A stretch of 64,000 nt of DNA from an uncultured delta proteobacterium (GTDB lineage Bacteria; Desulfobacterota; Binatia; Binatales; Binataceae): positions 480,001 to 544,000 of the forward strand of contig CAVQEQ010000003.1 of NCBI GenBank assembly GCA_963711565.1, written 5' to 3'. Numbering within the stretch: position 1 is the stretch's first letter; the number at the start of each line of letters is the position of its first letter. The position numbers and the translations under genes are program-made. The notes beneath the pieces are model-generated. The model worked only from the letters and a program-made list of their open reading frames with translations, was not told the DNA's origin and did no database searches. This document shows positions 40,256 to 63,069 of this stretch, piece after piece.

Positions 40256-40323
40256 CTCTTCTCAATACCGGGTGCAGGGGTCACCCCTGCCCAGGGAAGT
40301 CTGAAACCCACGGTGGGTTTCAC
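40256..40323 (-). repeat. Two-hairpin intergenic repeat, copy 1
   Basis: Reverse complement reads GTGAAACCC-ACCGT-GGGTTTCAG ACTTCCCTGG GCAGGGG-TGA-CCCCTGC ACCCGGTATTGAGAAGAG; matches copies at 47781 and 54713. Confidence 0.9.
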
Positions 40324-40358
40324 TTAGAATCAAGTTCCGCCCGGCTCGCGTTACTCAC

Positions 40359-43300
40359 TCACGGACCGGTCCCCGTCATGCTGATGTTATGCGGGCTGTC
40401 CGGATCGCTGCCGACGCTCACCGCGATGCTTGCGCTTTCGGGCGCGCCGCCGGCGGTGGGCGTGAACGTCACCGCTATCGTGCACGACGAGTTCGCCGAC
40501 AGCATCGGGCCGCAGGTGCCGCCGTTCACCGCAAAGTCGCTCGCATTCGGACCGCTGGTGTTGCTCTCACTCACCGATAGCGTGAAGCCCGACAGGTTGG
40601 TAACAGTCAGGTCCTTGGTTTTCGTCGGGACCCTGGCCGTCAGGGTGCCATACGCGAGCGTGGCCGCCGGGGTGACGGTTGCCGGGACCGTCGGGCCGGT
40701 GGTGATCGCGACGATATGCGGGCCGAGTGGATCGGGACTGTCAGTCACCGTGAGAGTCGCCGATTCAGTTCCCAGCGAGCCCGGCACGAAGGTCACTGTG
40801 GTCGTACAGGCCGTTTTGGCGGCGAGCGTCGTGCCGCAGGTACCGCTGATCGAGAAGTCAGAGTGGTTGGCGCCGCTGAAACTTTCGCTGAGGCTCACCG
40901 ACTGGGTTTGATGATTGCTTACGCTGAACGACTGCGTGCCCTTGGCGCCGAACTTCACGTTGCCGAATACCAGGCTGCTCTTCGAGGTCGTCAGATCGAC
41001 GACGCCGGTGCCGGTGAGGGTCACATTCTGCGGGCTAGTGGTGGCGTTGTCGGATAGCGTCAGGGTTGCGGGATGAGCGCCGAGCGCGTCGGGCGTGAAC
41101 GAGACTCCGAGCGTGCACGACGACTTGGGCGCGACCGTGATGGGAAGCGAACCGCAGGTACCGGTGCCGCTGAGGGCATACTCGGAGTCGGACGGGGTCG
41201 CATTTGAGATGACCAACGGATTGGTCTTGCCGGTGTCGTGGATCGTCAGGTTCTTCGTCACCGTCTGCCCGTCGGTAACGTTGCCGAAGGCAAGCGATGC
41301 CGTCACGGTCATCGAGGTAGTCGGAGTCGCGGTCGGCGTCGCGGTGACGGTCGCGGTTGAGGTCGAAGTTGCAGTCGCCGTGGCAGTCGCGGTGGCCGTC
41401 GCAGTGGCCGTTGCGGTCGGCGTGGCGGTTGCGGTCGGCGTTGCCGTCGCGGTGCGCGTGGGCGCGGAGGAAGCGGTTGAAGTCGCGGTCGGAGTGGCCG
41501 GGCTCGGCGTCGCGGTCGGAGTGAGCGGGGCCGGTTGCAGCGCGATTTGGCTGCCGGCCATCGCGGAGGCCGCACTGTTCTGCGTGCAGGTTTGGGCCGG
41601 CGGCGCCTCATTCGACGCTGCGGTTCCGCTATAAGCGATCAGGTTGACGGAGCTGGCGGAGACCAGGCCGGAAGCGCCACTCCCGACAATTTGCGAGTAG
41701 GGCGAGACGGGACCAGACCACGGGTTGGCGCCAGTTCCCCTACGCGCCACGCAGTTGAGGATCAAAGCTTCGTTGCTCTGCGCGAGATTAGAAAGAGCTG
41801 GAACCGAGAGGCTTGTTGCACTCGTGCTGGTGATGCCGACCCCGGTTGGATTGTTCGGATCGATGGGCGCGTCAGGGTTAACCCCGCTGAAACACTGAAT
41901 CCAGCCCGCATAGATGGTGTTGGTCGAACTGCTGAGAGTCCAGGTGAAGTCCTCGGGATCGCTGCCGCCGCCCAGCGACTTGTACCAGTAGAGGTACTCG
42001 GCCGCGCCGGTGACGCCGCTGTTATCGCCGCGGATCGGGGTCCATCCATTGGGAACCGTTTTGACCGTAAGGGTCGTCGCCGCATCCGAGAACTCGGCGA
42101 CACAGATGTCGTCGGCGGCCACGCCGGGAGGAAAGTTCAGAGTAACGTCGGCCGTCGCAGTTGAATCGTAGCTCGTGGTCGCGGCCGGCTGGTCTGGAAC
42201 CGGGGAAGGAACCATTGGGCCCAAGGCGTTCAGGTAACCGGCATTGTCGAGAAAGTAGATGGTGCCGTCGGCGCCGATCGCGGCCGAGGAGTAGTTCACG
42301 CCGTTGCCGTAGTACGCCCACTTTTGGGTGGCTGAGGTGCCGTCGTCAGTTACTGCGATCAAAGTGGGATTGACGGACGCTTGGCCGAGGTAAATGGTGC
42401 CGTCGGCGCCGATCGTTGGCGAAGAATGATAGGTCTCCGACAGTCGCATTTGCCACTTATCGGAACCGTCGGCGTTAAACGCGAGAATATTGTTGTTCGC
42501 GTAGTCGCTGAAGTAGATGGTTCCGTTGGCTCCAACTGCGGGCGAGGAGTATCCATTGGCGCCGGCCGGGTCCGCCCACTTCTCAGCGTATGTGCTGCCG
42601 TTGTCGGTCAGGGCGTAGAGGTTCTCGTCAGGATCATCGGAGGCAAAATAGACCGTGCCGTCCGCGCCGATCGCCGGGGAGGACTGCACCTCGCCTTCGG
42701 TCAGAAACGCCCACTTCTCGGTGGCGCTGGAACCGCTGTCAGTCAGCGCGTAGAGGTTGTCGTCATCGGAGCCGACGTAAATGGTGCCGTCGGCGCCGAT
42801 CGCGGGTGAGGATTCCACTGCGCCGCTGGTCGCGAACGCCCACTTCTTCGTAACGCTGCCTTGACCGCCGTCGGTAAGCGCGTAGACGTTGTCATCGAAG
42901 GAGCCGAAGTAGATCGTGCCGTCGGCGCCGATCGCGGGTGAGGATTCCACTGCACCGCCGGTCGCGAACGTCCACTTTTCCGTAACGCTGCCTTGCCCGC
43001 CATCGGTTAGCGCATACAGCCTGTCGCCGGAGCCCACGTAAATGGTGCCGTCAGCGCCGATCGCCGGTGCAGAGATAAAGACAGAGCCGCCGGTGGAGAA
43101 CACCCACCTTTCGCTGCCGTCGGGATTTACCGCGTAGATATTGCCGTTACCATAGTTGCCGAAGTAGATGGTGCCGTCAGCGCCGATTGACGGCGAGGAG
43201 TACCCTGGGGAGCCCTCACCGGAGGAGAATTGCCATTTGACGTTGGCGCCGATGGCGCTGGTGTTGTACTCGCTCTGGCCGGTGTGGGAGAGATCGTGCT

Positions 43301-43433
43301 GGAATACCGGCCACGCCAACGTCACCAATTGCGCGTGCGTAACGCCCAGCGCCGCAAGCGCAACAAACCCAATCGCCGCCACGCTCAACCACGCAATCGC
43401 GCCGACACGTGTTCTTCCCGATGGTTCCCTCAT
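40359..43433 (-). CDS. Large surface protein: PQQ-like beta-propeller, Thr/Ala/Pro linker and three Ig-like (choice-of-anchor D/ASH-type) domains
   Basis: Seven SSPAIGADGTIY-type repeats, a long TATATP tract and three TCG...CT..V.F.P domains. AGGGAGG SD precedes ATG 43433. Confidence 0.88.
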   Translation of the reverse strand: MREPSGRTRVGAIAWLSVAAIGFVALAALGVTHAQLVTLAWPVFQHDLSHTGQSEYNTSAIGANVKWQFSSGEGSPGYSSPSIGADGTIYFGNYGNGNIYAVNPDGSERWVFSTGGSVFISAPAIGADGTIYVGSGDRLYALTDGGQGSVTEKWTFATGGAVESSPAIGADGTIYFGSFDDNVYALTDGGQGSVTKKWAFATSGAVESSPAIGADGTIYVGSDDDNLYALTDSGSSATEKWAFLTEGEVQSSPAIGADGTVYFASDDPDENLYALTDNGSTYAEKWADPAGANGYSSPAVGANGTIYFSDYANNNILAFNADGSDKWQMRLSETYHSSPTIGADGTIYLGQASVNPTLIAVTDDGTSATQKWAYYGNGVNYSSAAIGADGTIYFLDNAGYLNALGPMVPSPVPDQPAATTSYDSTATADVTLNFPPGVAADDICVAEFSDAATTLTVKTVPNGWTPIRGDNSGVTGAAEYLYWYKSLGGGSDPEDFTWTLSSSTNTIYAGWIQCFSGVNPDAPIDPNNPTGVGITSTSATSLSVPALSNLAQSNEALILNCVARRGTGANPWSGPVSPYSQIVGSGASGLVSASSVNLIAYSGTAASNEAPPAQTCTQNSAASAMAGSQIALQPAPLTPTATPSPATPTATSTASSAPTRTATATPTATATPTATATATATATATATATSTSTATVTATPTATPTTSMTVTASLAFGNVTDGQTVTKNLTIHDTGKTNPLVISNATPSDSEYALSGTGTCGSLPITVAPKSSCTLGVSFTPDALGAHPATLTLSDNATTSPQNVTLTGTGVVDLTTSKSSLVFGNVKFGAKGTQSFSVSNHQTQSVSLSESFSGANHSDFSISGTCGTTLAAKTACTTTVTFVPGSLGTESATLTVTDSPDPLGPHIVAITTGPTVPATVTPAATLAYGTLTARVPTKTKDLTVTNLSGFTLSVSESNTSGPNASDFAVNGGTCGPMLSANSSCTIAVTFTPTAGGAPESASIAVSVGSDPDSPHNISMTGTGP
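41310..41530 (-). repeat. Coding low-complexity (Thr-Ala/Thr-Pro)n linker
   Basis: Degenerate 6-bp periodicity encoding PTATPSPATPTATST...TATATATAT...PTATPTT. Confidence 0.85.
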
Positions 43434-43662
43434 CGCACCCTCCCTGGTTCGAGCGGACACTCAGAACCCTCGAAGGAGCCGCCAAGGTCGCCGCTACGCG
43501 ATCACCCAATACCACAGGCATCACCATCCCCGGAACCGCGCGTCACGATCCACTCCCGTCGAGTGTGATGGGTCACTCCAGCATCGCTTCGAAAAAACGC
43601 AACATCACGCGTTTCCACTTCGCATCGTTCAGAAGCGATACGGGACTGTACCAATCGTGAGC

Positions 43663-43691
43663 ATCCTACCGTTAGACTAATATCCTGTCAA
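43663..43691 (-). promoter_or_regulatory. Sigma70-type promoter for the surface-protein gene
   Basis: Minus strand TTGACA-17 nt-TAGGAT; an inverted repeat ACTAAT-N9-ATTAGT (43676-43696) overlaps the -35. Confidence 0.7.
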
Positions 43692-43842
43692 TTAGTTTAT
43701 CTAAAAGAAAAATCTGGTCTGCTACCGGCAATTTCAGTGTTGAAGTATCGCAGGCCAGCCCATGGAGCGGCTGGTGTCAGCCTGATGGATGCGCGCCGGG
43801 AAGAAGCGAATCGTGGCGCGCCTGCGAGAGGGGACGCGCGGC

Positions 43843-45672
43843 TCAGGCGGGAGTGAATTGGCGGTCGGAGAGCTTGGGAGCAGTCAGGTCGGTGACACCG
43901 AGCATGAAGCGCCGCAGCGTTAGCTGGTGAGCAGCCGCGAAAGACTCGAGCGAGGCCAGTTGCGCGGCGGAGAGGGTCTCCTGCGCGATTACGATTTCGT
44001 CGAACGGAGTGCGCGCCATGATCCCGTCAATATTGTCGAGCGAGCCCAGCACCGGGTAGCCGTGGAACAGCTTGCCGTGCTTGAAACTGTCGTCGTCGAG
44101 CAGGCCCAGCAGCTCGGTGCCGGCGCCAAGCGTCGCGTGCAGATGTTGAACGGCGGCGGCGCCGCGCGCGTCGGCGCCCACAATCACGAGGCGGCGGCCG
44201 GAATGCGCCAGGAAGCGGAGGATGCGCTGGAACAGATGGAACGACCAGCGCGTGCCGACCAGGAAATTGAACAGCAGCAGAACGAACATCACGGCGGCCG
44301 AGCGCGAAATCACGATCGGCAGAATGTGCGATGCCAGCTTGACGGCAAGCCCCGCGAGCACCGCGGCCAGCGCAAAACGCACACTCTCGGCCAGTCCGGT
44401 GTAGCGCCAGATGCCTCGGTAAACGCCTGCCACCAGGAATGAACCGCAGCCAATCGCGACGATCCACGGCAGGCCCGCAATCATCTGGCTCACCTGGAAT
44501 ATGCTGAGGTCGAAGTCGTAGCGCAGCATCATCGCGCCGAAGTAGGCCGCCGCTACCAGCGCTACATCGAGGATCAATTCGACGAAGCGGCGCTTGTAGC
44601 CGAAGCTCAGGATGACGCGCGCAATCGCGGGCAGGTCCTCGATTTGGCCGGGCGCCTCGGCGTCGAACGAGCGATCCATCAGGAACAGCGCCACCAGCGC
44701 GAAGAACAGGGCCATGAACGGAATCAGCAGGATCGCGTCGTAGCCCGGCACCAGGCTGAGCGCGATCGCGCATCCGCCCGCGATCACCTGAATGCCGATC
44801 AAGGTCATCGCCGCGCTGGTACTCGACATGCCCAGGCGCGTCAGCCGATGATGCGAATGATCGAGGCCGCGGCGCGAGATGGGATTGCCGGTCGCGAGCC
44901 GCGTCACCGTTACGGTCACGGTGTCGAGCAGCGGGACCATCAGCGCCAGCAACGGCATCGCGAGGCGCGCCGGCAGAGACCCCTCGCCGAAACGGCTGCC
45001 TTGAATCGAGAGCACGCCCAGCACGAGCCCGACCGCAAGCGCGCCTTCGTCGCCCATGAAAATGGAAGCCGGCGGAAAATTGAAGATGATGAATCCCCCC
45101 AGCGCGCCGGCGATCGCGAGCGCCGCGACCATCGTGCCGCTGTGCTGATGCAGCCCGGCAACGGTGGCGATGCTCAAGGCCGCGACGATGCCGACTCCCG
45201 CGGCGAGGCCGTCGACGCCGTCGATCAAGTTGAAGGCGTTGGTCGCGGTGACCAGCCAGAAAATCGTCAAAGCGAGGTTGAAGCTCGCGTACGGGAAGAA
45301 GTCGAGATGCGGTCCCCACCATACGAGGACGCAGATGGCGGCCAGCTCGAGCATCAGCTTGTGACGCGGCTTGAGATCGACGATGTCGTCGAGCAATCCA
45401 ACGAGGCACATCGCGACCGCGAAGGCCGCGAGCCATGGGATACTATGGTAGGGCAGGCCTGACAGGATTCCGACGAAACCGATCGCAAAGACGAAGCCGG
45501 CCATCACGGCCAAGCCGCCGAGCAGCGCGGTCGGCTTTTCATGGGGGCGGTCGCTGCTAGGCTGGGCGACGATGCCGAAGCGGACGGAAGCGAGCTTCGC
45601 GACCGGCATCATCGCGATGGCGACAAGGAAAGCGGACAAAAGCGTGAGGACTATTTCAAACTCGATGGTCAA
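43843..45672 (-). CDS. WecA/MraY-family undecaprenyl-phosphate HexNAc-1-phosphate transferase fused to extra TM helices and a Rossmann-like domain
   Basis: GLLDDIVDL, NAFNLIDGVDGL, NFPPASIFMGD, HSHHRL; then GVYRGIWRY and RRLVIVGA...LLDDD. Confidence 0.88.
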   Translation of the reverse strand: MTIEFEIVLTLLSAFLVAIAMMPVAKLASVRFGIVAQPSSDRPHEKPTALLGGLAVMAGFVFAIGFVGILSGLPYHSIPWLAAFAVAMCLVGLLDDIVDLKPRHKLMLELAAICVLVWWGPHLDFFPYASFNLALTIFWLVTATNAFNLIDGVDGLAAGVGIVAALSIATVAGLHQHSGTMVAALAIAGALGGFIIFNFPPASIFMGDEGALAVGLVLGVLSIQGSRFGEGSLPARLAMPLLALMVPLLDTVTVTVTRLATGNPISRRGLDHSHHRLTRLGMSSTSAAMTLIGIQVIAGGCAIALSLVPGYDAILLIPFMALFFALVALFLMDRSFDAEAPGQIEDLPAIARVILSFGYKRRFVELILDVALVAAAYFGAMMLRYDFDLSIFQVSQMIAGLPWIVAIGCGSFLVAGVYRGIWRYTGLAESVRFALAAVLAGLAVKLASHILPIVISRSAAVMFVLLLFNFLVGTRWSFHLFQRILRFLAHSGRRLVIVGADARGAAAVQHLHATLGAGTELLGLLDDDSFKHGKLFHGYPVLGSLDNIDGIMARTPFDEIVIAQETLSAAQLASLESFAAAHQLTLRRFMLGVTDLTAPKLSDRQFTPA

Positions 45673-45982
45673 TCTTGCTCTATACGATCAGCTCGGTGTG
45701 TTGGTTGCCATTCAAAGTCTTCCACAGCCCACCGTGGGCAGCTTAGTCGTTCAGCAGGTTAGCGCCGTTTGGAGTTTATAGCTAAACCCTCCCTGCTCGG
45801 GGACGCGAACCGCTGACGATCATGACGAGGCTGAGTGGTCCATCGCCTCGGTGGGGTGAACCTTGGCAGAGGGGTCGGTCTACGTCAAGGCTAGCTACAT
45901 CGATTTATGTAGCGTGTACGCTACGGGTGGCAGGCGGATGGCGGGCACGGCGGCCCGTCCCACTGATCTCCACAATCAGCGC

Positions 45983-46255
45983 CTACTGCTTCATCACGAG
46001 CACGTTGCCGTCTTTATCCAGTGCTAGGCAATCGACCTGCTGCCCGGAATAGAATGCCCCGCAAATCGACTTGTCCACACCCGGGCATTTGTAAAGGTTC
46101 GGCGCGGTCTGCTCGCATTGCGCGAGATTGAAATGGAGCGCCGTCTGCGCCCTGTTCTCCTGGGCCTGCGAGGGCGAGAAAATGTAGCACCCCGACAGCG
46201 CGATCGCCGCCACCGACACAATCACCGCCGCAACTTTTAGCGAGCTTCCCCTCAT
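45983..46255 (-). CDS. Small Cys-containing lipoprotein
   Basis: Lipobox LSGC, four further Cys, GGAGG SD before ATG 46255. Confidence 0.75.
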   Translation of the reverse strand: MRGSSLKVAAVIVSVAAIALSGCYIFSPSQAQENRAQTALHFNLAQCEQTAPNLYKCPGVDKSICGAFYSGQQVDCLALDKDGNVLVMKQ

Positions 46256-46375
46256 AACACTTTCCTCCCACATCTTCATCGTGTGTTCCTCCACCGAGGC
46301 AAGGATTTATATGGATTCGGCGCGCATCACAACTGGGGGAATCGTGATTACGTTTACTGGTCAGGAGTAACGACA

Positions 46376-47419
46376 ATGCGTTCATCTTTGAAACTGGTTT
46401 CGGATGGCGCCGCGCTCGACGGGAGCCGTCCGTTCTCTCATGATTCGTCCGACGATCGTCTGTTCGACGCCTACTCTCGCGCCGTGACGGGCGCCGCCGA
46501 GTCCGTCAGTCCGGCGGTGGTGAATATCGAGGTGGCTCATGCGACTGGACCGCGGAGCAATCCGCACAATCCCGACGCGCCGGCAGGCAGCGGTTCGGGG
46601 TTCATCGTCGCGCCCGACGGCTACATCATTACAAACAGCCACGTCGTCCATCACGCGTCGCGAATCTCGGTCACGCTTTCCGACGGCCGCAAATCGGAAG
46701 CGGAACTAATTGGAGACGATCCGGAAACCGATCTCGCGGTGATTCGAATCAGCGGATCGAACCTGGCGGCGGTGTCTCTCGGCGACTCGCAGGCGATTCG
46801 GGTCGGGGAGCTCGCGATCGCGATTGGAAATCCGTACGGCTTCCAATGCACCGTGACTGCGGGCGTGGTGAGCGCGCTCGGACGATCGTTGCGCGCGGGA
46901 TCTGGGCGCTTGATCGACAACGTGATCCAAACAGACGCGGCACTGAATCCCGGCAACTCGGGCGGACCGCTGGTCAACTCTCGCGGCAAGGTTATCGGCG
47001 TCAATACAGCGATCATCTTGCCGGCGCAGGGAATCTGCTTCGCGATCGCGATCAACAGCGCGAAGCTGGTCGCGGGGCATCTGATCAAGGACGGCAAGAT
47101 CAGCCGCGGCTATATCGGAATCGCGGGGCACAACGTCGAGCTGCCGCGGCGCTTCGTGCGGTTCTATCGGCTGCCGGCGGAAACGGCGGTGCGAGTCGCG
47201 TCGGTCGAGGCGAACAGTCCGGCGGCGGCCGGCGGAATCAAGGAAGGCGACCTGATGATTCGGCTCGGCGACTCGCCGATCGCAGGCATCGACGATTTGC
47301 AGCGGCACCTCACAATGAACCAGGTGGGAGTGCGCACGCCGGTCGCGGTGATTCGCGGGACCGAACAGATGACGCTCGAAGTGGTTCCGGCGGAAGCGGC
47401 GCACAAATCGCGCGAGTGA
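46376..47419 (+). CDS. HtrA/DegS-like trypsin serine protease with one PDZ domain
   Basis: GSGSGF, TNSHVV, DLAV, QTDAALNPGNSGGPL. AGGAG SD before ATG 46376. Confidence 0.93.
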   Translation: MRSSLKLVSDGAALDGSRPFSHDSSDDRLFDAYSRAVTGAAESVSPAVVNIEVAHATGPRSNPHNPDAPAGSGSGFIVAPDGYIITNSHVVHHASRISVTLSDGRKSEAELIGDDPETDLAVIRISGSNLAAVSLGDSQAIRVGELAIAIGNPYGFQCTVTAGVVSALGRSLRAGSGRLIDNVIQTDAALNPGNSGGPLVNSRGKVIGVNTAIILPAQGICFAIAINSAKLVAGHLIKDGKISRGYIGIAGHNVELPRRFVRFYRLPAETAVRVASVEANSPAAAGGIKEGDLMIRLGDSPIAGIDDLQRHLTMNQVGVRTPVAVIRGTEQMTLEVVPAEAAHKSRE

Positions 47420-47780
47420 GGTCTGCGGCGTTTCGCGCTTTGGCGCCGGCATCGGTGGGAATAATTTTCCTGGCGAGATGCCCAATGCTTTGCGTAACGC
47501 AGTGTGTAACTCAGCATCGCTGGGTGTCGCGTTGCTGGTCCCTGGATTGCTTGATTTGCCACGATGCCGGGCGGGACGCCAGAATGTGAGATGGTTTTAA
47601 GGCAAACTCAAGAGAGTTTGCGTGCTATGAAACTGCACATCGTCAATTATCAGCTGCAGCTCCTGCTGTTGTCCTTGAGAAATCCTGTAGAAAATTCCGA
47701 CACACCGCGGCACGACGATATAGGCTCGAGCTCCCGCAGTGTTCCGGTACGGAAGCCGCGCGACTGAGACTTAATATAAT

Positions 47781-47850
47781 GTGAAACCCGCGGTGGGTTT
47801 CACGCTTCCTTCGGCAGGAGTGACCCCTGCACCCGGTGTTAAAAGAAGAG
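47781..47850 (+). repeat. Two-hairpin intergenic repeat, copy 2
   Basis: GTGAAACCC-GCGGT-GGGTTTCAC GCTTCCTTCG GCAGGAG-TGA-CCCCTGC ACCCGGTGTTAAAAGAAGAG. Confidence 0.9.
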
Positions 47851-47857
47851 CGACGTG

Positions 47858-49564
47858 TTATCCCATCGGGCCCTGGTAGACCTCGGCGAAGCGCATGCCG
47901 AGTTCGCCGGGGATCGCGAGGTTGGCGTCGCGATTCGTTTTCAGGCAGATGACCGCGGGACCGTCGGCGGCCTGCGCATCCTTTAACGCCGCGTCGAGAT
48001 CTTCGATCCTATCGACGTAGAACGATTTGCAGCCGAGGCCCTCGGCGACTTTGTCCCATCGCACTGTGCCCATCTCGGTGCCGAAGGTCTTGCCCCAGAG
48101 GCGGCGTTCGTTCGGCTCTTCCATGGTCCATGAACCTTCGGCGAAGACGATGACCCTGACTTTCAGGCCTTCGCGCGCCGCCGTTTGCATCTCCATGAAG
48201 TTGAAGCCCGCGGCGCCGTCGCCGCTGACGCAAACGACTTCGCGCGAGGGGTTGCCGAGTTTCGCGCCGATCGACGAAGGGATTCCGGTGCCGAGCATCC
48301 CGAGCTCTAGGATGTTCAGGAACGACCGCGGCTTGGTCGATGGAAGAAACCAGAGCGACCACAACGAGGTGTTGCCGCCGTCGGCGACGTAGATACTGTC
48401 GGGGCCGAACACCTTGCCGATTTTTTCGATCGCTTGCGCCGGATGGATTCCCGGTCCGCTCCACTTCGCGACCGAGGCGAAACGCTTCTCGCGCCATTCG
48501 TGAGCGGTCTGCCGATAGCGCGCCATATCTTCGCCGTTTTTGGGCTGGGCGCGTTTCGTCTTGAGCACACGCAGCAAGCCTTCGAGCGCGCTCTTCGCGT
48601 CGGCGACAATCGCGAGTGCGAGCGGGCGCGTGACGCCCATGTTGCGCTGATCAATGTCCACCTGGATGAGTTTCTGATTGGAGGGGTCGCCCCAGTACTT
48701 GTCGTAGGGAATGTCGAGGTTGCCCATCCGCGAGCCGGCGACGAGGATCACGTCGGACTCGCGGCGCGCGAGGTCGGCGGCAATTCCGTAGCCGTAGAGA
48801 AAGTTCGGATGGTCCATCGGCACCGACGAGCGCGCGGCAATCGAACTGATGACCGGACAGTTGAGCAGATCGACGACGGCTAGGAGCGCCTCGTTGGCGC
48901 CGGCGCGATCGACTCCGCCGCCCGAGATCACGAGAGGCCGCTTCGCCGCTATGAGCATCGCGGCGGCCTCTTCGAGCTGCGCCTCCGACGCGCGCGGACC
49001 CGATGCGCGGTATTCATTCGGCTTGAGCACGCGGACTTTGGTGTCGTCGCCCGTCGCGTACATGATGGGCGCGGGAATCTCGATATGAATCGGGCCGGGC
49101 CTGCCGGTCCACATCTCGCGAAACGCAATGCGCATCACTTCGGGGATTCGATCCCACGACAGAATCGGACCGCTCCATTTCACGACGGGCTTGAAGATTT
49201 CGAGCTGGTCCTGTCCCTGGAAGGTCGAGGGCGGCGACGGATAAACGATGCCGAGGCGATGCTGCGCGGTGATGACGACGACGGGCACGCCCTCGTGGCG
49301 CGCGGTGATCACGCCGGGCAGAAGATTCGCGGAGCCGGGGCCTGGATTGCCGAGCACGGCGGCGACCTGGCCGGTCGTCTTGTACAGCCCCTCCGCCATG
49401 TGGACGGCGGCGGCCTCGTGACGGATGGGCACGAGTCGCACGTCGTACTCCGCGAGCTTGGCGAGCAGCGGATCGACCTCGGGACAAGGGAGGCCGAAGA
49501 CGAACTTGACACCCTCGGCAACGAGACATCGCAGCAGCAGTTCGGCACCTGTGATTTCGCTCAT
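47858..49564 (-). CDS. Thiamine pyrophosphate-binding enzyme (acetolactate synthase-like superfamily)
   Basis: IRHEAAAVHMAEG, GPGSAN, GRPGPIHIEIP, SGDGAAGF. GGAGG SD before ATG 49564. Confidence 0.92.
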   Translation of the reverse strand: MSEITGAELLLRCLVAEGVKFVFGLPCPEVDPLLAKLAEYDVRLVPIRHEAAAVHMAEGLYKTTGQVAAVLGNPGPGSANLLPGVITARHEGVPVVVITAQHRLGIVYPSPPSTFQGQDQLEIFKPVVKWSGPILSWDRIPEVMRIAFREMWTGRPGPIHIEIPAPIMYATGDDTKVRVLKPNEYRASGPRASEAQLEEAAAMLIAAKRPLVISGGGVDRAGANEALLAVVDLLNCPVISSIAARSSVPMDHPNFLYGYGIAADLARRESDVILVAGSRMGNLDIPYDKYWGDPSNQKLIQVDIDQRNMGVTRPLALAIVADAKSALEGLLRVLKTKRAQPKNGEDMARYRQTAHEWREKRFASVAKWSGPGIHPAQAIEKIGKVFGPDSIYVADGGNTSLWSLWFLPSTKPRSFLNILELGMLGTGIPSSIGAKLGNPSREVVCVSGDGAAGFNFMEMQTAAREGLKVRVIVFAEGSWTMEEPNERRLWGKTFGTEMGTVRWDKVAEGLGCKSFYVDRIEDLDAALKDAQAADGPAVICLKTNRDANLAIPGELGMRFAEVYQGPMG

Positions 49565-49671
49565 AACGTCCTCCGGTGAGACCAATTCGGACACTACGCT
49601 CGCTGCCAAACCGGGAGCAAGCCGCGCGTCGCTGATGGAATCGACGTTCCTCCACCTGCTAGTTTGCGTGC

Positions 49672-51192
49672 ATGTCAACCGAGCCACCAGTCGCTGGAGC
49701 CGAAGGAGCATTGAATCGAGGCGCGCGCGAAGCCCTGATTTACGCGGTGCTACTCAGCGCTGCAGTTTTTCTCTATTTGATCATCCGCAAGTATGGCGAC
49801 CAGCTAGCGCAACCCACTCGAGCCGCCGCGCAACTTGGCGTCGCCGCGGCCGGCCCTCCGGGCGGCCATGACGCCGACGTGATGGTTCATATTTTGCTGG
49901 CGCTGTCGGTGGTGATCGCGTGCGCGCGCCTGGGCGGAATGCTTTTTCGATTCCTGCATCAGCCCGCGGTGGTGGGCGAGATCGTCGCGGGCATCATGCT
50001 CGGTCCGTCGCTGCTGGGACACGTCTGGCCAGGGGCGTTCGCGTATCTGCTGCCGCCGACGGTGGCGCCATTTCTGGACGTACTCGCGCAGCTCGGCATT
50101 ATCCTCTACATGTTTTTGGTCGGTCTCGAACTCGACCCTGTGCAGGTGGCGCGGCACGGGCGAGCCGCGGTTGCGATCTCGCACGCCAGTATCGTCACGC
50201 CGTTCTTGCTCGGCACCCTGCTAGCGTTGCTGCTCTATCCGGAGGTTGCCGCGGCCGGAATTCCGTTTACGGGTTTTTCGCTCTTCATCGGCGTCTCGAT
50301 GTCGGTGACGGCGTTCCCCGTGCTGTCGCGGATTCTGACCGACCTCGGCATCAACAAGACGCCGCTGGGGGTAACGGCCCTGACGAGCGCCGCGGTAGAT
50401 GACGTGACCGCATGGTGCCTGCTGGCGGTGGTGGTTGGCGTGGTCGGGGCGCATGGGTCCGAGAGCGTGATCACCGTGGCGATGGCGGTCGCTTACATCG
50501 TGCTGATGACTGTGCTCGTCCGGCCAACGGTCGGGCGGCTGACGATCCGGCAGGAAACCAGCGGGCACCTGACGCAGGGGATGATGGCGATTGTTTTTGT
50601 CCTGTTGCTGCTGTCGGCGCTGACCACGGATCTTATCGGCATTCACGCGATGTTCGGCGCGTTCGCGCTCGGCGCGATCATTCCGTCGGACAGCAAGCTC
50701 GCGCACGACATGACGGATCGGCTCGAAGACGTGCTGGTGGTGCTGCTGCTGCCGACGTTTTTCGCTTTGACCGGGCTTCGCACTGAAATTGGCCTCGTGA
50801 GCGGGTTGCACGAATGGATGCTGTGCGGGCTGATCATCGCGGTTGCGTCGATCGGCAAGTTCGGCGGCAGTTTCGTAGCCGCGCGGCTGACGGGATCGAG
50901 CTGGCGCGATGCGTCTGCGATAGGCGTGCTGATGAACACGCGCGGACTGGCGGAATTGATCGTGCTCAACATCGGCCTGCAGTTGCGAGTCATCAACCCC
51001 AGAGTGTTCGCGATGCTGGTGGTTATGTCGCTGGTCACTACGCTCGCGACCAGTCCCATACTTCGCCTGATCAGGGGCAAGGAGGTCGCTGCCGCGCCGT
51101 CCGAAGGCGGGGTCTCGTGGATGGGGCGGTTGCGGATGGCGCTGCACAAACCAGTGGAGATAAGCCGGCGCTCGCTTCACGAAAATACATAA
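49672..51192 (+). CDS. Cation:proton antiporter (CPA2/Kef-like)
   Basis: QPAVVGEIVAGIMLGPSLLG, SVTAFPVL, AAVDD, LMNTRGL. Confidence 0.92.
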   Translation: MSTEPPVAGAEGALNRGAREALIYAVLLSAAVFLYLIIRKYGDQLAQPTRAAAQLGVAAAGPPGGHDADVMVHILLALSVVIACARLGGMLFRFLHQPAVVGEIVAGIMLGPSLLGHVWPGAFAYLLPPTVAPFLDVLAQLGIILYMFLVGLELDPVQVARHGRAAVAISHASIVTPFLLGTLLALLLYPEVAAAGIPFTGFSLFIGVSMSVTAFPVLSRILTDLGINKTPLGVTALTSAAVDDVTAWCLLAVVVGVVGAHGSESVITVAMAVAYIVLMTVLVRPTVGRLTIRQETSGHLTQGMMAIVFVLLLLSALTTDLIGIHAMFGAFALGAIIPSDSKLAHDMTDRLEDVLVVLLLPTFFALTGLRTEIGLVSGLHEWMLCGLIIAVASIGKFGGSFVAARLTGSSWRDASAIGVLMNTRGLAELIVLNIGLQLRVINPRVFAMLVVMSLVTTLATSPILRLIRGKEVAAAPSEGGVSWMGRLRMALHKPVEISRRSLHENT

Positions 51193-51247
51193 TCGCCGAA
51201 GCCAATTTCACTCAGGTGGATCGGCTCGCCCCTGCTACAATGGTTGA

Positions 51248-52297
51248 GTGGCCGAGCTTGACGTAATCTTCGCGCCGGCGCTTGCTCCTGACGATCTCGT
51301 CGGCCTCGAGTTGCACTTGCTCGACGCGGTCGCGAGGCGCGAGACGGCGCCGGTCCTGCTCATCTATGCATCGCCGGGGCGAGCGATCTCGATTGGGCAC
51401 TATCATCTATATGGCGGGCCCGCGGAGCGCGACGGAATAAACGTGATGCGGCGTCTGACGGGTGGCCGCGTCGTTGGCGCGGGACAGGGATGGCTCGGGC
51501 TGGCGCTGATTCTGCCGACGCGCACCGCGTTGCTGAAGGAAGACGTCACGCGACTGAAACCTGACCAGATTATGAATCGATACGCGCGCGGCCTGCTCAG
51601 TGGGATGCGCGCGCTTGGGGTCGATTGTTTCTACCCCGGCCGTGACGCGATAACGTTTGAGCAGCGCGAGCTTGCGATGTGCACTTTCGAGACTGACGCG
51701 GCGGGTGCGATGCTGTTCGAGGCGTCGATCGCGCACAATCGCGGGATGGAAGAACTCGTGCACGATTTGGAACGTATCGACCCGGACGGCGCGCTTTCAT
51801 GCCGCATGTATGACGCCGCGACCGCGACCAAGGTGGTGCGCGAATTGGATCGCGATATTACTTTCGACGAGATCGCCGATGCGATCGCGTCGGGCTACCG
51901 CGGTTCGCTCGGCGAGACTCGGCGGCGCGAGTTGACGGCGATAGAAACCGCGCAGGCGCAGTACCGCGGGCGTGCAATTGCGGCCTCAAACTGGTTACGC
52001 GGGCCAGTCGCGGGACCGTCGATGACGCTGAGGAATCGGATCGCGTCGCAACTCGGCGCGATCGAGGCCGCGGTAGCTCTCGGAGACGACAAGACAATCG
52101 AAACGATCCGGCTGAGCGGAGATTTTATCGCCAACTCGCCGGCGATCGCGGAACTCGAGAGCGAGCTTCGCGGGCGCACGCTCGACCTGCCGTCGATCTC
52201 TCATGCCGTCACGAAGACATTCGGGCATGACGGAAATTTTTTTCTTGGCGCGAGCGAGTTGTCCAATCTCGCACGGCTGATCGCGGGTGTGAATTGA
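51248..52297 (+). CDS. Lipoate-protein ligase-like protein (BPL/LplA fold plus C-terminal domain)
   Basis: ISIG, RRLTGGRVV motif and C-terminal IRLSGDF...ELESELRG. The catalytic Lys is not evident. Confidence 0.75.
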   Translation: MAELDVIFAPALAPDDLVGLELHLLDAVARRETAPVLLIYASPGRAISIGHYHLYGGPAERDGINVMRRLTGGRVVGAGQGWLGLALILPTRTALLKEDVTRLKPDQIMNRYARGLLSGMRALGVDCFYPGRDAITFEQRELAMCTFETDAAGAMLFEASIAHNRGMEELVHDLERIDPDGALSCRMYDAATATKVVRELDRDITFDEIADAIASGYRGSLGETRRRELTAIETAQAQYRGRAIAASNWLRGPVAGPSMTLRNRIASQLGAIEAAVALGDDKTIETIRLSGDFIANSPAIAELESELRGRTLDLPSISHAVTKTFGHDGNFFLGASELSNLARLIAGVN

Positions 52298-53028
52298 AAG
52301 CATCGGATGACAGCGCTGCGCCTTCGGTCGAGAGTCTGATTGGCGAACTTGGCGACGCGCACAAAACCGTTCAGCGCCGCGCGATCGATGAACTCGTCGC
52401 GATAGCAGGGTCAGGCGACCCGATCGTCGTTGAAAAACTTCGCGAGTCGATCACCAGCGACGACCGGCGCGTGCGATGGGCGGCGGCGTATGCGCTCGGA
52501 CAAATCGGTGCGACTGCGTTTGCAATGGATTCCGCGGACGCGCTGTGCGAGGCGATGGCCGACGACGACGGCGATATCAGGTGGGCGGCGACCAACCTGA
52601 TGGTACGGCTCGGGCGTGAAAACCTCGGGGAGATTGGCGCGCGCCTGCTCAGGCTCGCAAGCGGCAGCGATCGCAATGCGCGCAAGATGGCGCTCTACTG
52701 TATTCGCGACCTTGAAATAGCCGGTCCCGAGCTGCTCGCCGTCGTTGGCATCGCGGTCCGCGACCCGGATGTTCACGTGCGGCTGGCGGCCGTGTCAGTG
52801 CTGTCGCGGATTCGCGATGCGTCGGGCGAGGCGGTGAGAATAATGCTCGAATGCCTCAAGTCCGATTCCGATGCGGGCGTGCGGCGAGCCGCGGCCTCGG
52901 CCCTTGGCAATATTCATAGCGCAAGCGCGGACGCTAGGGCCGCGCTCGCATCGGCGGCGGCCGACCCCGCCGACGAGTCACTGGCGCGAGCCGCACGCGG
53001 TGCGCTCGACCGGCTGGAGAAACGATGA
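52294..53028 (+). CDS. HEAT-repeat protein
   Basis: Repeated D.D..VR.AAA.ALG units. Confidence 0.88.
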   Translation: MKASDDSAAPSVESLIGELGDAHKTVQRRAIDELVAIAGSGDPIVVEKLRESITSDDRRVRWAAAYALGQIGATAFAMDSADALCEAMADDDGDIRWAATNLMVRLGRENLGEIGARLLRLASGSDRNARKMALYCIRDLEIAGPELLAVVGIAVRDPDVHVRLAAVSVLSRIRDASGEAVRIMLECLKSDSDAGVRRAAASALGNIHSASADARAALASAAADPADESLARAARGALDRLEKR

Positions 53029-53522
53029 TGGCCACGACACCACAACCGATACCCGATTCTGCGAACGATCCCGCTACCCGATTCGCCGAACCGCACGTGC
53101 GTGAGTTCGTAACCGCCGCGCGCCTGGCGCATCTGGCGACCGCCGACGACAGCGGCGCTCCACACAACGTACCGCTCTGCTACTGGTTCGACGGCGAACG
53201 CATCTACTTCGCGATCGACGAGAAGCCCAAGCGCCACACGGGCCTGGCGCTCAAGCGGATGCGCAATATCGCGCAGAATCCGCGCGTCGCCGTCGTGATC
53301 GATCATTATGAAGAAGACTGGTCGCAGCTCGCGTACGTGCTGATTCGCGGTAACGCCCAAGTGGTCGACGACCCCGAAGAGTACCTGGTCGCCATGCGGC
53401 ATCTGCGCGACAAATACGTGCAGTATCGCGCGATGAGCCTGACGCCGGAGAAAAATCCAATCGTGAAGATCGATCCGGAGAGCGTGCACGTGTGGGGCGC
53501 ACGTTTCATGGCGGATTCATGA
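53025..53522 (+). CDS. PPOX-class (pyridoxamine 5'-phosphate oxidase-like, possibly F420-dependent) oxidoreductase
   Basis: ARLAHLATAD...PH.VP, IDEKPK, RNIAQNPRVAVVIDHYEEDWSQL. Confidence 0.88.
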   Translation: MMATTPQPIPDSANDPATRFAEPHVREFVTAARLAHLATADDSGAPHNVPLCYWFDGERIYFAIDEKPKRHTGLALKRMRNIAQNPRVAVVIDHYEEDWSQLAYVLIRGNAQVVDDPEEYLVAMRHLRDKYVQYRAMSLTPEKNPIVKIDPESVHVWGARFMADS

Positions 53523-54706
53523 CGGCGCAGTTCGATGAAATTGCGCACGCGCTTGGCGATACGCGACTTGACGGATGGCTGTTCTATGACTTCCGGCTGA
53601 GCGACCCGCTCGCTTATCGAATTCTCGGATTGTCGGAAGATGGTATCGCGACGCGGCGATGGTTCTGCTTCGTGCCGGCGCACGGCAGGCCGCGGGCGAT
53701 AGTTTCGGCAGTCGAGGCGCATCGGCTCGACGCGCTCGGCGTTGAGAAGATCGTCTATCGCTCGCACGACGAGATGATCGCGGCCTTGCGCACCGTGCTC
53801 GGCGGCGCGCGGCGAATCGCGATGGACTACTCGCCTGGATGCGCGATTCCGTACGTCTCGCGCGTCGATGCGGGCACGGTCGAAATCGTGCGCGCGATGA
53901 ACATCGAGGTCGTCACGGCGGCCGATCTGATCCAGCGATTCGAGGCGACATTGACGCGCGAGCAGCTCGGGAGCCATCAGCGTGCCGCGCGGGCGCTTCG
54001 AGCGATCGTCGATGAGACCTTCAGGGAGATTGCGCAGTTGATTTCGGCAGATCGTGCGGTCAGCGAAGTCTCGGTGCAAGAATCGGTGATGGCGCGGTTC
54101 GCCGCGCGAGGTCTCGTGACGCACGCGCCGCCGATCGTCGCCGTCAATGAACATAGCGCCGATCCGCACTACGGCCCGACGCCGAAGCACGACCGCGCGA
54201 TCCGGCGCACAGATTTTATCCTGCTCGACCTGTGGGCGAAGGAGTCGGCGCCCGACAGTATTTACGCCGACTTCACCTGGGTTGCGTTCGCAGGAGACAG
54301 GGTTCCAGAAGAGCACGCGCGTATTTTCAACATTGTCGCGGATGCGCGCGACGCAACGGTAGATTTGGTGCAGCGTCGGGTCGCTGCGGGCGAGCCGGTT
54401 AGTGGCCGTGAAGCTGATCGCGCAGCGCGTTCGGTAATCGAGGCGGCCGGCTTCGGTGAGAAGTTTGTACATCGCACGGGCCATTCGATCGGCCGCGAAG
54501 TGCATGGCACCGGCGCGAATCTCGACTCGCTCGAGACGCTGGACGATCGCACGCTTATCGACCACACATGCTTTTCGGTCGAGCCGGGAATTTATCTGCC
54601 GGGAAAATTCGGCGTGCGCAGCGAACTCGATATGACGATCGAAGACGGGCGTGCGCTGGTCAGCGGTGAGCCGCGCCAGCGCGAGATCGTCGCGATCCTC
54701 GCTTAA
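53519..54706 (+). CDS. M24 family metallopeptidase (Xaa-Pro peptidase-like)
   Basis: ADPHY, LLDLW, YADFT, HRTGHSIG, SVEPGIY, GVRSE. Confidence 0.92.
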   Translation: MTAQFDEIAHALGDTRLDGWLFYDFRLSDPLAYRILGLSEDGIATRRWFCFVPAHGRPRAIVSAVEAHRLDALGVEKIVYRSHDEMIAALRTVLGGARRIAMDYSPGCAIPYVSRVDAGTVEIVRAMNIEVVTAADLIQRFEATLTREQLGSHQRAARALRAIVDETFREIAQLISADRAVSEVSVQESVMARFAARGLVTHAPPIVAVNEHSADPHYGPTPKHDRAIRRTDFILLDLWAKESAPDSIYADFTWVAFAGDRVPEEHARIFNIVADARDATVDLVQRRVAAGEPVSGREADRAARSVIEAAGFGEKFVHRTGHSIGREVHGTGANLDSLETLDDRTLIDHTCFSVEPGIYLPGKFGVRSELDMTIEDGRALVSGEPRQREIVAILA

Positions 54707-54712
54707 TTAAAT

Positions 54713-54774
54713 GTGAACCCCCCGGTGGGTTTCACGCTTCCTTCGGCAGGGCTGAGCCCTGCAGCCAGTGTTAA
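54713..54774 (+). repeat. Two-hairpin intergenic repeat, copy 3
   Basis: GTGAACCCC-CCGGT-GGGTTTCAC GCTTCCTTCG GCAGGGC-TGA-GCCCTGC AGCCAGTGTTAA. Confidence 0.88.
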
Positions 54775-54798
54775 GCGGCTTCCAAAGCAGAGCGGGGC

Positions 54799-55506: not shown

Positions 55507-56177
55507 TGGCGGCGAAGCTCTACCAGTTTCTCGGCAGCCCATTCTGCGCCAAGGTGCGCAAGCTGCTCGCGTTCAAGGGCGTCGAGTTCGAAGTGGTCGA
55601 GGTTGACTACCTCGAGCGCAAGGAATTGCTGCTGGCGTCGGGACAGTTGACGGTGCCGGCGGTCACGCTCGATAACGGCGAGACGATCGTCGATTCGGCG
55701 CGGATCGCGATGCGTCTCGAGGAGCTTTATCCCGAGCCGACGATTTTTCCCGCAGGATGGCGCGGGATGCATGTCGCGCTCGCCGACTATATCGACAACC
55801 ATCTCGAAGAGAAGGTATATCCGCTCGCGCTCGCCGACGAGCTCGCATACTACAGCAAGCAAGGTGCGGATCGCGGGGCGCTCTGGCGGTTTATCCGCGA
55901 GCGCAAGTTCGGCAAAGGTTTCGTCGATCGGACTATCGCGGATCAATCGGCCAATTGGGAGCGCTTCCGCAACGCTCTCGCGCCGTTCGAGGAGCAACTC
56001 GGCAACGTACCGTTTCTCACCGGCAGGATTGGCCTGGCGGACTTCGCGCTATACGGGCAGTTGTTCTACCTGGCGTTCACGGGCGATCTGAAAATTCCGG
56101 CCGAGATGAAAAATCTGCGGGCGTTTTTTGGGCGCGTCGAGCGGATCAGTTCGATCGTCGAGGAAACAGGATCGTGA
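55503..56177 (+). CDS. Glutathione S-transferase family protein
   Basis: SPFCAKVR, TVPAV, DSARI, LADFALYG. Confidence 0.9.
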   Translation: MMAAKLYQFLGSPFCAKVRKLLAFKGVEFEVVEVDYLERKELLLASGQLTVPAVTLDNGETIVDSARIAMRLEELYPEPTIFPAGWRGMHVALADYIDNHLEEKVYPLALADELAYYSKQGADRGALWRFIRERKFGKGFVDRTIADQSANWERFRNALAPFEEQLGNVPFLTGRIGLADFALYGQLFYLAFTGDLKIPAEMKNLRAFFGRVERISSIVEETGS

Positions 56178-56191
56178 ATGCGCGCACGTAA

Positions 56192-56227
56192 CCTCACCCC
56201 TAACCCCTCTCCCTTCAGGAGAGGGGG
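56192..56227. repeat. Palindromic element (CCTCACCCC...CCCCTCTCC/GGAGAGGGG), likely also a terminator
   Basis: Hairpin CCCCTCTCC-CTTCA-GGAGAGGGG between convergent genes; same family as 6471-6594. Confidence 0.75.
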
Positions 56228-56239
56228 ACAGAAAAGAGA

Positions 56240-56683
56240 TTACGCGAGTTCGCTGATTGCGGTCGTCAGGAAGTGGCTGAAGAGCGCGCCGGTCGAGTCG
56301 AGCGCTACGTCATATAGCGAGGCGGTGCGGCCGGGCACGAAGATTTGATGGCCCTCGTCGGTCAGCGCGTAGACGACGCAAAGCATCAGCGCGAGGTACG
56401 GCCGCTGCTTCATCGGTCCGCGCACCAGCAGCCAGAAGAGAATTCCGTACTCGGTGAAGTGCGCGGCCTTGCGCACCAGCATATGGCAGACGTCGACCGA
56501 CGCGGCGCTGATTCCCGGAATCAACCATCGCAGGATCGGGTCGATGATTTTGCCGGTGTTGGCGGCGGAAAACGCCGAGGTCGAGAGCGTGAAGATCAGG
56601 GCGCCCCATAGAATTACAGGGATCCATTCGCCGAGCGGAGCGAGCTCCGGCGCGCCGGCTGACAAGGATTTCTCCGCCGGCAT
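56240..56683 (-). CDS. VanZ family membrane protein
   Basis: RKAAHFTEYGIL, YALTDEGHQIFVPGR, DVALDSTG. Confidence 0.92.
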   Translation of the reverse strand: MPAEKSLSAGAPELAPLGEWIPVILWGALIFTLSTSAFSAANTGKIIDPILRWLIPGISAASVDVCHMLVRKAAHFTEYGILFWLLVRGPMKQRPYLALMLCVVYALTDEGHQIFVPGRTASLYDVALDSTGALFSHFLTTAISELA

Positions 56684-62484: not shown

Positions 62485-63069
62485 ATGGACGATCGCCATA
62501 TTCCGTCGGTCGGCGAGAAGGCTCCCGAGTTTGCGCTCGCGGACTCGACCGGCGTGGTGCGCCGGCTCGACCACCTGGTCGCCGGCGGATTGTGCGTCGT
62601 CGTTTTCTATCGCGGACATTGGTGACCGTTCTGCCTCCGCCAGTTGGCGGACTACTCGAAGCATCTCGAGGATTTTCGCGCGGCCGGCGCCGAGCTGGTC
62701 GCGATCTCGGTTGACGACGCCGCTCGCGCGGAGCCGGTGCGCCAGGAGCTTGGCGTCAAATTTCCGCTGCTGTGCGACACGCGGCGCGAGGTCGTCAAGA
62801 CGTACGGCCTGCTGAACAGCGGAGAGAAAGGCGGAATAGCATTCCCCGCTTCATTTGTGATCGATCGCGAGCGCGTCGTGCGTTTCCGCGCGCTCGAAGA
62901 AGTCGTACCGCGCGTCAACGTGGACCAATTACTCGAACTCGTCCGTGACCTTGGCAAGGGCGTCGAATCGCAAACCAAACCGCGCACGCGCGGCGTCTTT
63001 CCCGGACTGATGTTCCTGCAGGCGACCATGAACGCGCTTCGGCACGGCGTCCGTTCGCCAAATAAATAA
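62485..63069 (+). CDS. Peroxiredoxin-like (AhpC/TSA) selenoprotein, Sec at codon 47
   Basis: ATG 62485 reads MDDRHIPSVGEKAPEFALADSTG...VVVFYRGHW-TGA(62623)-PFCLRQL and continues in frame into ORF 62644..63069. TGA occupies the first Cys position of the WCPxC motif. Confidence 0.88.
62626..62651 (+). promoter_or_regulatory. Candidate bacterial SECIS element
   Basis: After a 10-nt spacer following the UGA: stem TCCGCC / GGCGGA closing an AGTT loop (G-U in the apical loop). Confidence 0.7.

What the first reader, a model, noticed from the sequence alone, without database searches (positions are those of the whole stretch)
40256..54774. Unannotated ~70-bp two-hairpin element in three dispersed copies, with a compensatory mutation
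Seen: copies at 40256-40323 (-), 47781-47850 (+) and 54713-54774 (+) share GTGAAACCC-N5-GGGTTTCAC, a 10-nt CTTCC linker, a second hairpin GCAGGGS-TGA-SCCCTGC and a tail ACCCGGTRTT. The closing pair of hairpin 2 is G-C in one copy and C-G in another, and the hairpin-1 loop varies. All copies are intergenic and preceded by an AT-rich patch (TTAATATAAT, TTAATTAAAT, ATTCTAA). No terminal inverted repeats or target duplications are evident. Inference: structure is under selection. Candidates are a REP/PATE-like non-autonomous element mobilised by an HUH (IS200/IS605- or RAYT-type) enzyme, or a repeated structured RNA. Three copies in 15 kb suggests many genome-wide.
Basis: partly seen in the sequence, partly recalled or inferred. 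Interest (0 to 1): 0.7.

Follow-up and report, generated by a model that had tools for sequence, protein, structure and literature searches.

The report
Chromosomal repeat resembling plasmid transfer origin
A 75-base folded DNA repeat lies at the ends of more than a hundred genes in soil bacteria of the genus Binatus, has the same layout as the transfer origin of MOBQ plasmids, and is likely a miniature transfer origin spread by a borrowed relaxase enzyme, which would be a new source of bacterial repeats.

Summary
The three copies are real. The genome holds 119 full and about 55 partial copies; 43 of 46 same-genus genomes carry the element (0-121 exact copies), and orthologous sites are filled or empty with no target duplication. 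Covariation supports both hairpins, a 3-bp loop-linker pseudoknot and a linked base triple. It is not a REP: it has no GTAG tag, and 0 of 19 Y1 loci carry it. No Rfam family matches. Hairpin 2 with its mirror tail is a pan-bacterial module, best read as a short purine-motif single-strand DNA triplex. New here: the order leader (AAGGG...CACTT.AT), inverted repeat, hairpin-2 module is the order found upstream of MOBQ relaxase genes in this genome and in plasmids pAM5 and pDESACI.02. Best reading (0.5): a non-autonomous mini-oriT spread by a relaxase in trans. Nicking is untested, the leader differs at the recalled nick site, and MOBQ genes occur in only 4 of 47 genus genomes. The scan found this repeat before on other Binatus DNA and called it REP-like; the oriT and triplex links are additions.

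The parts
40261..40335 (-). Copy 1, whole element (leader 40335-40324, hairpin 1 40323-40301, linker 40300-40291, hairpin 2 40290-40274, tail 40273-40261); 23 nt after the stop of a 1000-aa beta-propeller/Ig protein
47769..47843 (+). Copy 2, whole element, between convergent degP-like and TPP-enzyme genes
47769..47780 (+). Copy 2 AT-rich leader (ACTT.AT type); counterpart of the motif next to the inverted repeat in MOBQ oriT regions (inferred)
47781..47803 (+). Copy 2 hairpin 1: 9-bp stem, 5-nt loop; loop bases 47791-47793 pair with 47811-47813 (pseudoknot)
47804..47813 (+). Copy 2 linker: C-Y-T mirrors the stem's T-Y-C (predicted third strand), then the pseudoknot partner
47814..47835 (+). 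Copy 2 hairpin 2 plus ACCC tail: the pan-bacterial hairpin/mirror-tail module, also found directly after the oriT inverted repeat of MOBQ plasmids
54701..54775 (+). Copy 3, whole element (hairpin 1 54713-54735, hairpin 2 54746-54762 with the C-G closing pair); its leader supplies the TAA stop (54704-54706) of the M24 peptidase
53492..54706 (+). M24 peptidase gene whose last codons were replaced by copy 3; orthologues without the element read 6-17 codons further

Best explanation
The element is a genus-wide dispersed DNA repeat with the layout of a MOBQ plasmid transfer origin (nick-type motif, inverted repeat, hairpin/mirror-tail module), and it is likely a non-autonomous mini-oriT that folds as single-stranded DNA and is copied to new sites by a relaxase supplied in trans. 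Shown: copy number, confinement to one genus, filled and empty sites, loss of target bases without duplication, the covarying fold, and the shared order of parts with MOBQ oriT regions.
For: Upstream of the MobA/MobL gene at G000 C3:273400 and of one in G058 the order is AAGGGCGCACTTAT, an inverted repeat, then tandem hairpin/mirror-tail modules, one nearly identical to hairpin 2. MOBQ-typed plasmids pAM5 and pDESACI.02 have a hairpin-2-like module 5 nt after the same inverted repeat. The pattern AAGGG-N2-6-CACTT-N0-1-AT occurs 16 times in G000: 14 at elements, 1 at that oriT region, 1 elsewhere; 0.89 expected. Related modules adjoin MobV relaxase genes in 3 of 39 metagenome loci scanned, one more by eye and one genome locus. 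With the tail left free, 58 of 120 metagenome hairpins have the mirror tail CTCC, 16 CACC and 2 the direct repeat CCTC; A.C mismatches on the tail strand (G.T on the other) and T.A-T type tails fit the antiparallel purine motif, which PMC4666352 says does not form in RNA. In Binatus the 31-47-53 trio is linked in 95 of 96 non-G000 copies. 45 of 118 full copies have no same-strand gene ending at their 5' side.
Against: Nicking and transfer are untested. Hairpin 1 does not resemble the inverted repeats of those oriTs in sequence. MOBQ genes are in only 4 of 47 genus genomes, one of them (G018) with no elements; MOBV is in 0 of 47. No element lies beside these relaxases, and most of the MOBQ loci read have the motif and inverted repeat but no module (modules visible in 3 of 14 rows). 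The leader pattern was designed after seeing both sequences.
Confidence: 0.5

Rival explanations
1. An orphan REP/BIME-like DNA repeat moved by another small nuclease or HUH enzyme (RAYT, DUF559, GIY-YIG or unknown). The oriT likeness would only reflect a shared, generally useful single-strand module.
For: Behaves like REPs: intergenic, next to stops, mosaics with other repeats, inverted doublets. Three other repeat families in this genome each bracket a small nuclease gene. The hairpin-2 module occurs in many phyla mostly beside housekeeping genes.
Against: No nuclease gene in G000 is bracketed by it. Y1, DUF559 and GIY-YIG do not track it: G010, G016 and G018 have DUF559 and GIY-YIG but 0 elements, G053 has 53 elements and neither was found. 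0 of 28 DUF559 loci and 0 of 19 Y1 loci have it nearby.
Confidence: 0.27
2. A repeated structured RNA in 3' untranslated regions (TwoAYGGAY-like), kept because its pseudoknot protects or ends transcripts, and spread by recombination or an RNA step.
For: 66 of 73 copies with a same-strand upstream gene start within 30 nt of its stop, against 20 of 55 on the 3' side. Sense beats antisense 53 to 27. The pseudoknot wobble favours the mRNA strand. Hairpin-2-like modules cap AYGGAY-containing composites in Stenotrophomonas.
Against: 26 of 118 full copies lie between divergent genes and 19 are antisense. Sites are freely empty in relatives. No RT in G000. No match to RF01731, though that search had no positive control. 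In the wider family the tail rule fits a DNA-only triplex on the other strand.
Confidence: 0.13
3. A MITE with TTAA-type ends moved by a DDE transposase, or an integron attC site.
For: Ends read CTT(A)AT and RTTAAG, and copies follow stop codons in gene orientation.
Against: No terminal inverted repeat or target duplication at filled versus empty sites; target bases are lost. The fold is two hairpins plus a pseudoknot, not one long hairpin. No integron integrase over cut-off. Flanking genes keep their order with or without the element.
Confidence: 0.04

Closest known systems
MOBQ origin of transfer (as upstream of mobA in pAM5 NC_008691, pDESACI.02 NC_018067 and the G000 C3 element)
   Same: Order and strand of parts: GGG..CACTTAT-type motif, inverted repeat, short spacer, hairpin-2 module with ACCC tail.
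   Different: Leader spacing differs at the recalled nick site, the inverted repeat has another sequence, a pseudoknot is added, there is no relaxase beside it, and it sits in over 100 chromosomal copies.
REP / BIME / REPIN elements with RAYT (PMC3733652)
   Same: Small, palindromic, intergenic, lineage-specific, often supplying stop codons, in mosaics and doublets.
   Different: No GTAG or CGTC tag, 75 nt with two hairpins and tertiary contacts, and no association with Y1 genes.
BoxC / PIT / TM-ECO intrastrand triplex repeats (PMC4666352)
   Same: Hairpin plus mirror third strand, purine motif, dispersed, mobiliser unknown in that paper.
   Different: Only 3-4 triples per module (their search needs 6 or more), two modules in tandem, different sequence; TM-like repeats are a separate family in this genome.
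TwoAYGGAY motif, RF01731 and its extension (bioRxiv 10.64898/2026.09.22.753630)
   Same: Multi-hairpin dispersed repeat with a pseudoknot, variable copy number and doublets; a hairpin-2-like module caps AYGGAY composites in Stenotrophomonas.
   Different: No AYGGAY loops or basal stem, half the length, and no CM match.

Membership tests
MOBQ oriT | Inverted repeat directly beside a conserved nick-site motif | tested here: inconclusive
   Layout and both halves of the motif are present, but spacing is 5 nt instead of 2 and only 33 of 172 copies keep the whole leader.
MOBQ oriT | Bound and nicked by a MobA/MobL relaxase; makes DNA mobilisable | not testable with these tools
   Needs a nicking or mating assay.
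MOBQ oriT | Lies next to mobA/mobC genes | tested here: not met
   No element at 5 MOBQ loci; neighbours in G000 are housekeeping genes. Orphan oriTs acting in trans are known (PMC5704250 passages), so this lowers membership only partly.
REP/RAYT | GTAG or CGTC tag at the foot of a 20-40 bp palindrome | tested here: not met
   Column profiles show no such tag at either end.
REP/RAYT | Copies flank a Y1 (RAYT) gene | tested here: not met
   0 of 19 Y1 loci; these carry other repeats.
REP/RAYT | High copy, intergenic, near gene ends, no target duplication | tested here: met
IS200/IS605 ends (PATE) | Precise insertion next to a fixed 4-5 nt target, with TnpA/TnpB in the lineage | tested here: not met
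   Ragged junctions with target loss; no TnpB in G000.
Intrastrand triplex repeat (TM/BoxC) | Third strand mirrors the pyrimidine arm of a hairpin | tested here: met
Intrastrand triplex repeat (TM/BoxC) | At least 6 triples and the TM-ECO consensus | tested here: not met
   3-4 triples; the TM-like pattern marks another family here.
Intrastrand triplex repeat (TM/BoxC) | Triplex forms physically | not testable with these tools
   Needs CD, NMR or DMS probing.
TwoAYGGAY (RF01731) | Two AYGGAY loops on a common stem; CM score over cut-off | tested here: not met
   No such loops; no match in the window or genome (where no control rang).
MITE | Terminal inverted repeats and target duplication | tested here: not met
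Integron attC | Single long hairpin with R/L boxes, cassette arrays, IntI nearby | tested here: not met

The most novel reading that the evidence does not exclude
The copies are working, relaxase-in-trans transfer origins: a plasmid oriT that became a selfish chromosomal repeat, so that any passing MOBQ-type element can nick and mobilise the Binatus chromosome from about a hundred sites. The hairpin/purine-triplex module would be an unrecognised functional part of MOBQ and MOBV origins, and the many chromosomal repeat families built from it in other phyla would share this origin.
Probability: 0.22. Interest if true: 0.9.

Novelty: new variant of a known kind. Interest (0 to 1): 0.7.

Why it matters
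The origin of most small bacterial repeats is unknown; only RAYT-linked REPs have an enzyme. A repeat family traced to a conjugative transfer origin would add relaxases as makers of such repeats and would predict many chromosomal transfer starts in an abundant soil genus. The short triplex module gives a simple test for why a conserved hairpin follows the oriT of distant plasmids, and it links repeat families in Clostridia, Acidobacteria, Sphingomonadales and Stenotrophomonas that I found no common description for.

Tried and rejected
Mobiliser searches that led nowhere: Y1, RT (50), TnpB (111), Y2/IS91 (2 of 47), integron integrase (109), MOBV (129), DUF559 and GIY-YIG (48, 49, 101, 102, 106), genes bracketed by inverted copies (74, 78, 96, 107, 112; one search covered one 430-490 nt spacing only). 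MOBP, MOBF, MOBH, MOBC, MOBT and IS110 were not searched. No RNA holder was listed among public runs. Laying contigs of near strains gave no clean empty allele. Replication-strand bias was not significant, 90 to 73, on a weak skew. Pairing of the GGAAGGG leader with the linker is not supported by covariation. The terminator scan hit only copy 2, antisense. The mirror-tail test in viral contigs was uninformative: 0 ACTC tails of 238 for GAGG stems, 1 ACCT of 234 for GGAG, 7 ACCC of 238 for GGGG. My first mirror test was rough and redundant, and my generic module detector missed hairpin 2 itself. A window copy had no match in plasmids by blastn. No MobA relative was found in viral contigs. A second loop-tail contact in hairpin 2 (11 A-T against 83 G-C) may be one subfamily. 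No tree-based count of compensatory events was run; four-gamete patterns stand in for it.
Full report
Observation. The G-C to C-G swap at the top of hairpin 2 is real. BLAST and iterated nhmmer on the laid genome give 200 hits, 119 of them full length. With partial copies there are 173 loci, 170 intergenic by my own gene calls. Rfam has nothing.

Distribution. The hairpin-2 core is in 20 of 24 same-genus genomes and 0 of 16 from other families. A hairpin-1-plus-linker pattern is in 43 of 46 same-genus genomes, with 0 to 121 exact copies, and in 2 of 118 other genomes of the family, once each. Named records that hold the full element are Candidatus Binatus, Binataceae or unnamed delta-proteobacterial bins; G000 itself is unnamed, and the genus label also comes from earlier notes.

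Structure. On 97 copies (96 from other genomes plus window copy 2) the proposed pairs hold in 97.5% of cells, with 101 double changes against 31.5 in shuffles (0 of 500) and at most 53% pairing when partners are slid. The loop of hairpin 1 pairs with the linker: C-G in 48 and G-C in 46 sequences, and both states occur in both hairpin-1 haplotypes, whose sites interleave with the pair. Position 53 of the linker follows the 31-47 stem pair: A-T-T in 76 and G-C-C in 19 of 96. The linker's C-Y-T is the mirror of the stem's T-Y-C, the mark of a third strand. These counts are of related sequences, not independent events.

Mobility. At the site of copy 3, 27 of 30 fetched loci could be scored: 14 are filled at the same slot, 1 (L017, read by eye) further downstream, 12 are empty. 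In all filled ones the leader supplies the peptidase's stop; empty genes read on. Four more gaps in 20 relatives show the same coming and going, with target bases lost, no duplication, fragments and one ends-only scar. The 5' end hugs a stop (66 of 73 within 30 nt; null 31) far more than the 3' end (20 of 55). The 3' end points into clusters of other repeats and carries further hairpin modules in 30 of 118 full copies.

Which enzyme. In G000 three other repeat families each flank a small nuclease gene: RAYT, GIY-YIG and DUF559. The element flanks none, and none tracks it across 47 genomes. RT, TnpB and integron integrase were not found in G000 (94.9% complete), Y2 in 2 of 47 and MOBV in 0 of 47.

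Hairpin 2 is a pan-bacterial module. A genome scan stopped at 130 loci and returned Clostridia, Stenotrophomonas, Sphingomonadales, Acidobacteriota, Chloroflexota and others, mostly after housekeeping genes. Variants occur 388, 131 and 150 times in three such genomes. In 120 metagenome hairpins chosen without regard to the tail, 58 have the mirror tail, 16 CACC, 16 CTTC and 2 the direct repeat. In fetched Selenomonadaceae stretches 20 modules carry an A.C mismatch on the tail strand, a G.T pair on the other strand, and AAGG stems take an ATCC tail, a T.A-T triple. PMC4666352 states that this motif does not form in RNA. So the module is best read as folded single-stranded DNA (inference). The Binatus pseudoknot wobble points to the other strand, and this conflict is open.

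The link to transfer origins. Of 39 metagenome loci whose neighbours I scanned (63 of 82 candidate proteins), 3 have a MobV relaxase next to the module; one more by eye and one weak MOBP-type hit; one genome locus has Mob_Pre. MOBQ relaxases are in 4 of 47 genus genomes, two in G000. Upstream of the one at C3:273400, in an integrated mobilisable element, and of one in G058, lie AAGGGCGCACTTAT, an inverted repeat and tandem modules, one almost identical to hairpin 2. That the motif is the MOBQ nick region is my recollection; it is backed by 45 plasmid records matching this leader, most listed ones at the motif, and by MOBQ typing of two that I read. In pAM5 and pDESACI.02 a hairpin-2-like module follows the inverted repeat after 5 nt. 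The element has the same order on the same strand: AAGGG-n5-CACTT.AT, hairpin 1, hairpin 2. A pattern that covers both occurs 14 times at elements, once at this oriT region and once elsewhere (0.89 expected; pattern chosen after the fact).

Against. The spacing differs where I recall the nick; only 33 of 172 copies keep the full leader; hairpin 1 is unlike the known inverted repeats; most MOBQ loci read lack the module; relaxases are rare in the genus and do not track the element. A transient donor, or a relaxase subfamily I did not search, is needed.

Verdict. A real, selected, mobile repeat. It works like a REP but is not one, and it most likely descends from a MOBQ-type oriT (0.5). Shown: numbers, fold, empty sites, shared layout. 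Inferred: triplex, strand, relaxase, joining by repair (Ku present).

Literature. Seen: PMC3733652 (abstract, first part, passages), PMC4666352 (first part, passages; 82, 83, 86), bioRxiv 10.64898/2026.09.22.753630 (outline, passages, section 8; 88-90; its supplements were not seen and may describe related modules), PMC2864571 (passages, supplement hits; 93, 94), PMC5704250 (passages; 139). Searches listed no description of this repeat or of an oriT-derived chromosomal repeat; I read listings only, and the library is incomplete. Earlier scan notes reported the same repeat as REP-like; none held the oriT and triplex words.

Noticed in passing
L216-L223, L241-L260; L240:2170-2430: DUF559 genes (0-22 per genome, in 42 of 47) are bracketed by inverted BoxC/TM-ECO-like triplex repeats in 16 of 28 loci, against 7 of 918 small G000 genes as control. 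E. coli K-12 ycjD (DUF559) has a TM-ECO match and a second similar repeat just downstream. PMC4666352 found no mobility gene for this repeat; DUF559 is a candidate mobiliser.
   Followed up: partly
L210, L211 (G000 C1:417602, C1:78228): Small GIY-YIG genes are bracketed by GTCATT...GAAGAATC (CGTC-type) repeats, for which PMC3733652 reports no dedicated transposase.
   Followed up: partly
L001, L002, L033-L049: RAYT-like Y1 genes with their own GTAG/GTGG-type repeats in 13 of 47 Binatus genomes.
   Followed up: partly
G000 C3:263000-281400 (L779): Integrated mobilisable element with MOBQ relaxase, MobC-like and VirD4-like genes (read by eye), whose oriT is followed by about seven tandem hairpin/mirror-tail modules.
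   Followed up: partly
L234-L237: In Stenotrophomonas maltophilia, hairpin-2-like copies form inverted pairs 240-570 bp apart that cap giant palindromic composites with AYGGAY loops and short tandem repeats.
   Followed up: partly
L227:2316-2339; L225:2501-2549; L052/L053; L055: The same module occurs in an intergenic region of a microvirus, in an actinomycete plasmid and in two phage-like contigs.
   Followed up: no
window 56177-56240: A DUF559-type repeat fills a gap that holds the focal element, fragments of it, or nothing in relatives.
   Followed up: yes
G000 C1:1099000-1120500: Nine copies lie around mnmG, rsmG, parA and parB, while stretches of 150-250 kb elsewhere have none.
   Followed up: no
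window 49711-51192: The Na+/H+ exchanger gene is missing at this place in most relatives fetched, so it looks recently gained.
   Followed up: no
L232:900-920; window 62485-63069: In-frame TGA in redoxin-like genes (candidate selenoproteins; the window one was noted earlier by the scan).
   Followed up: no
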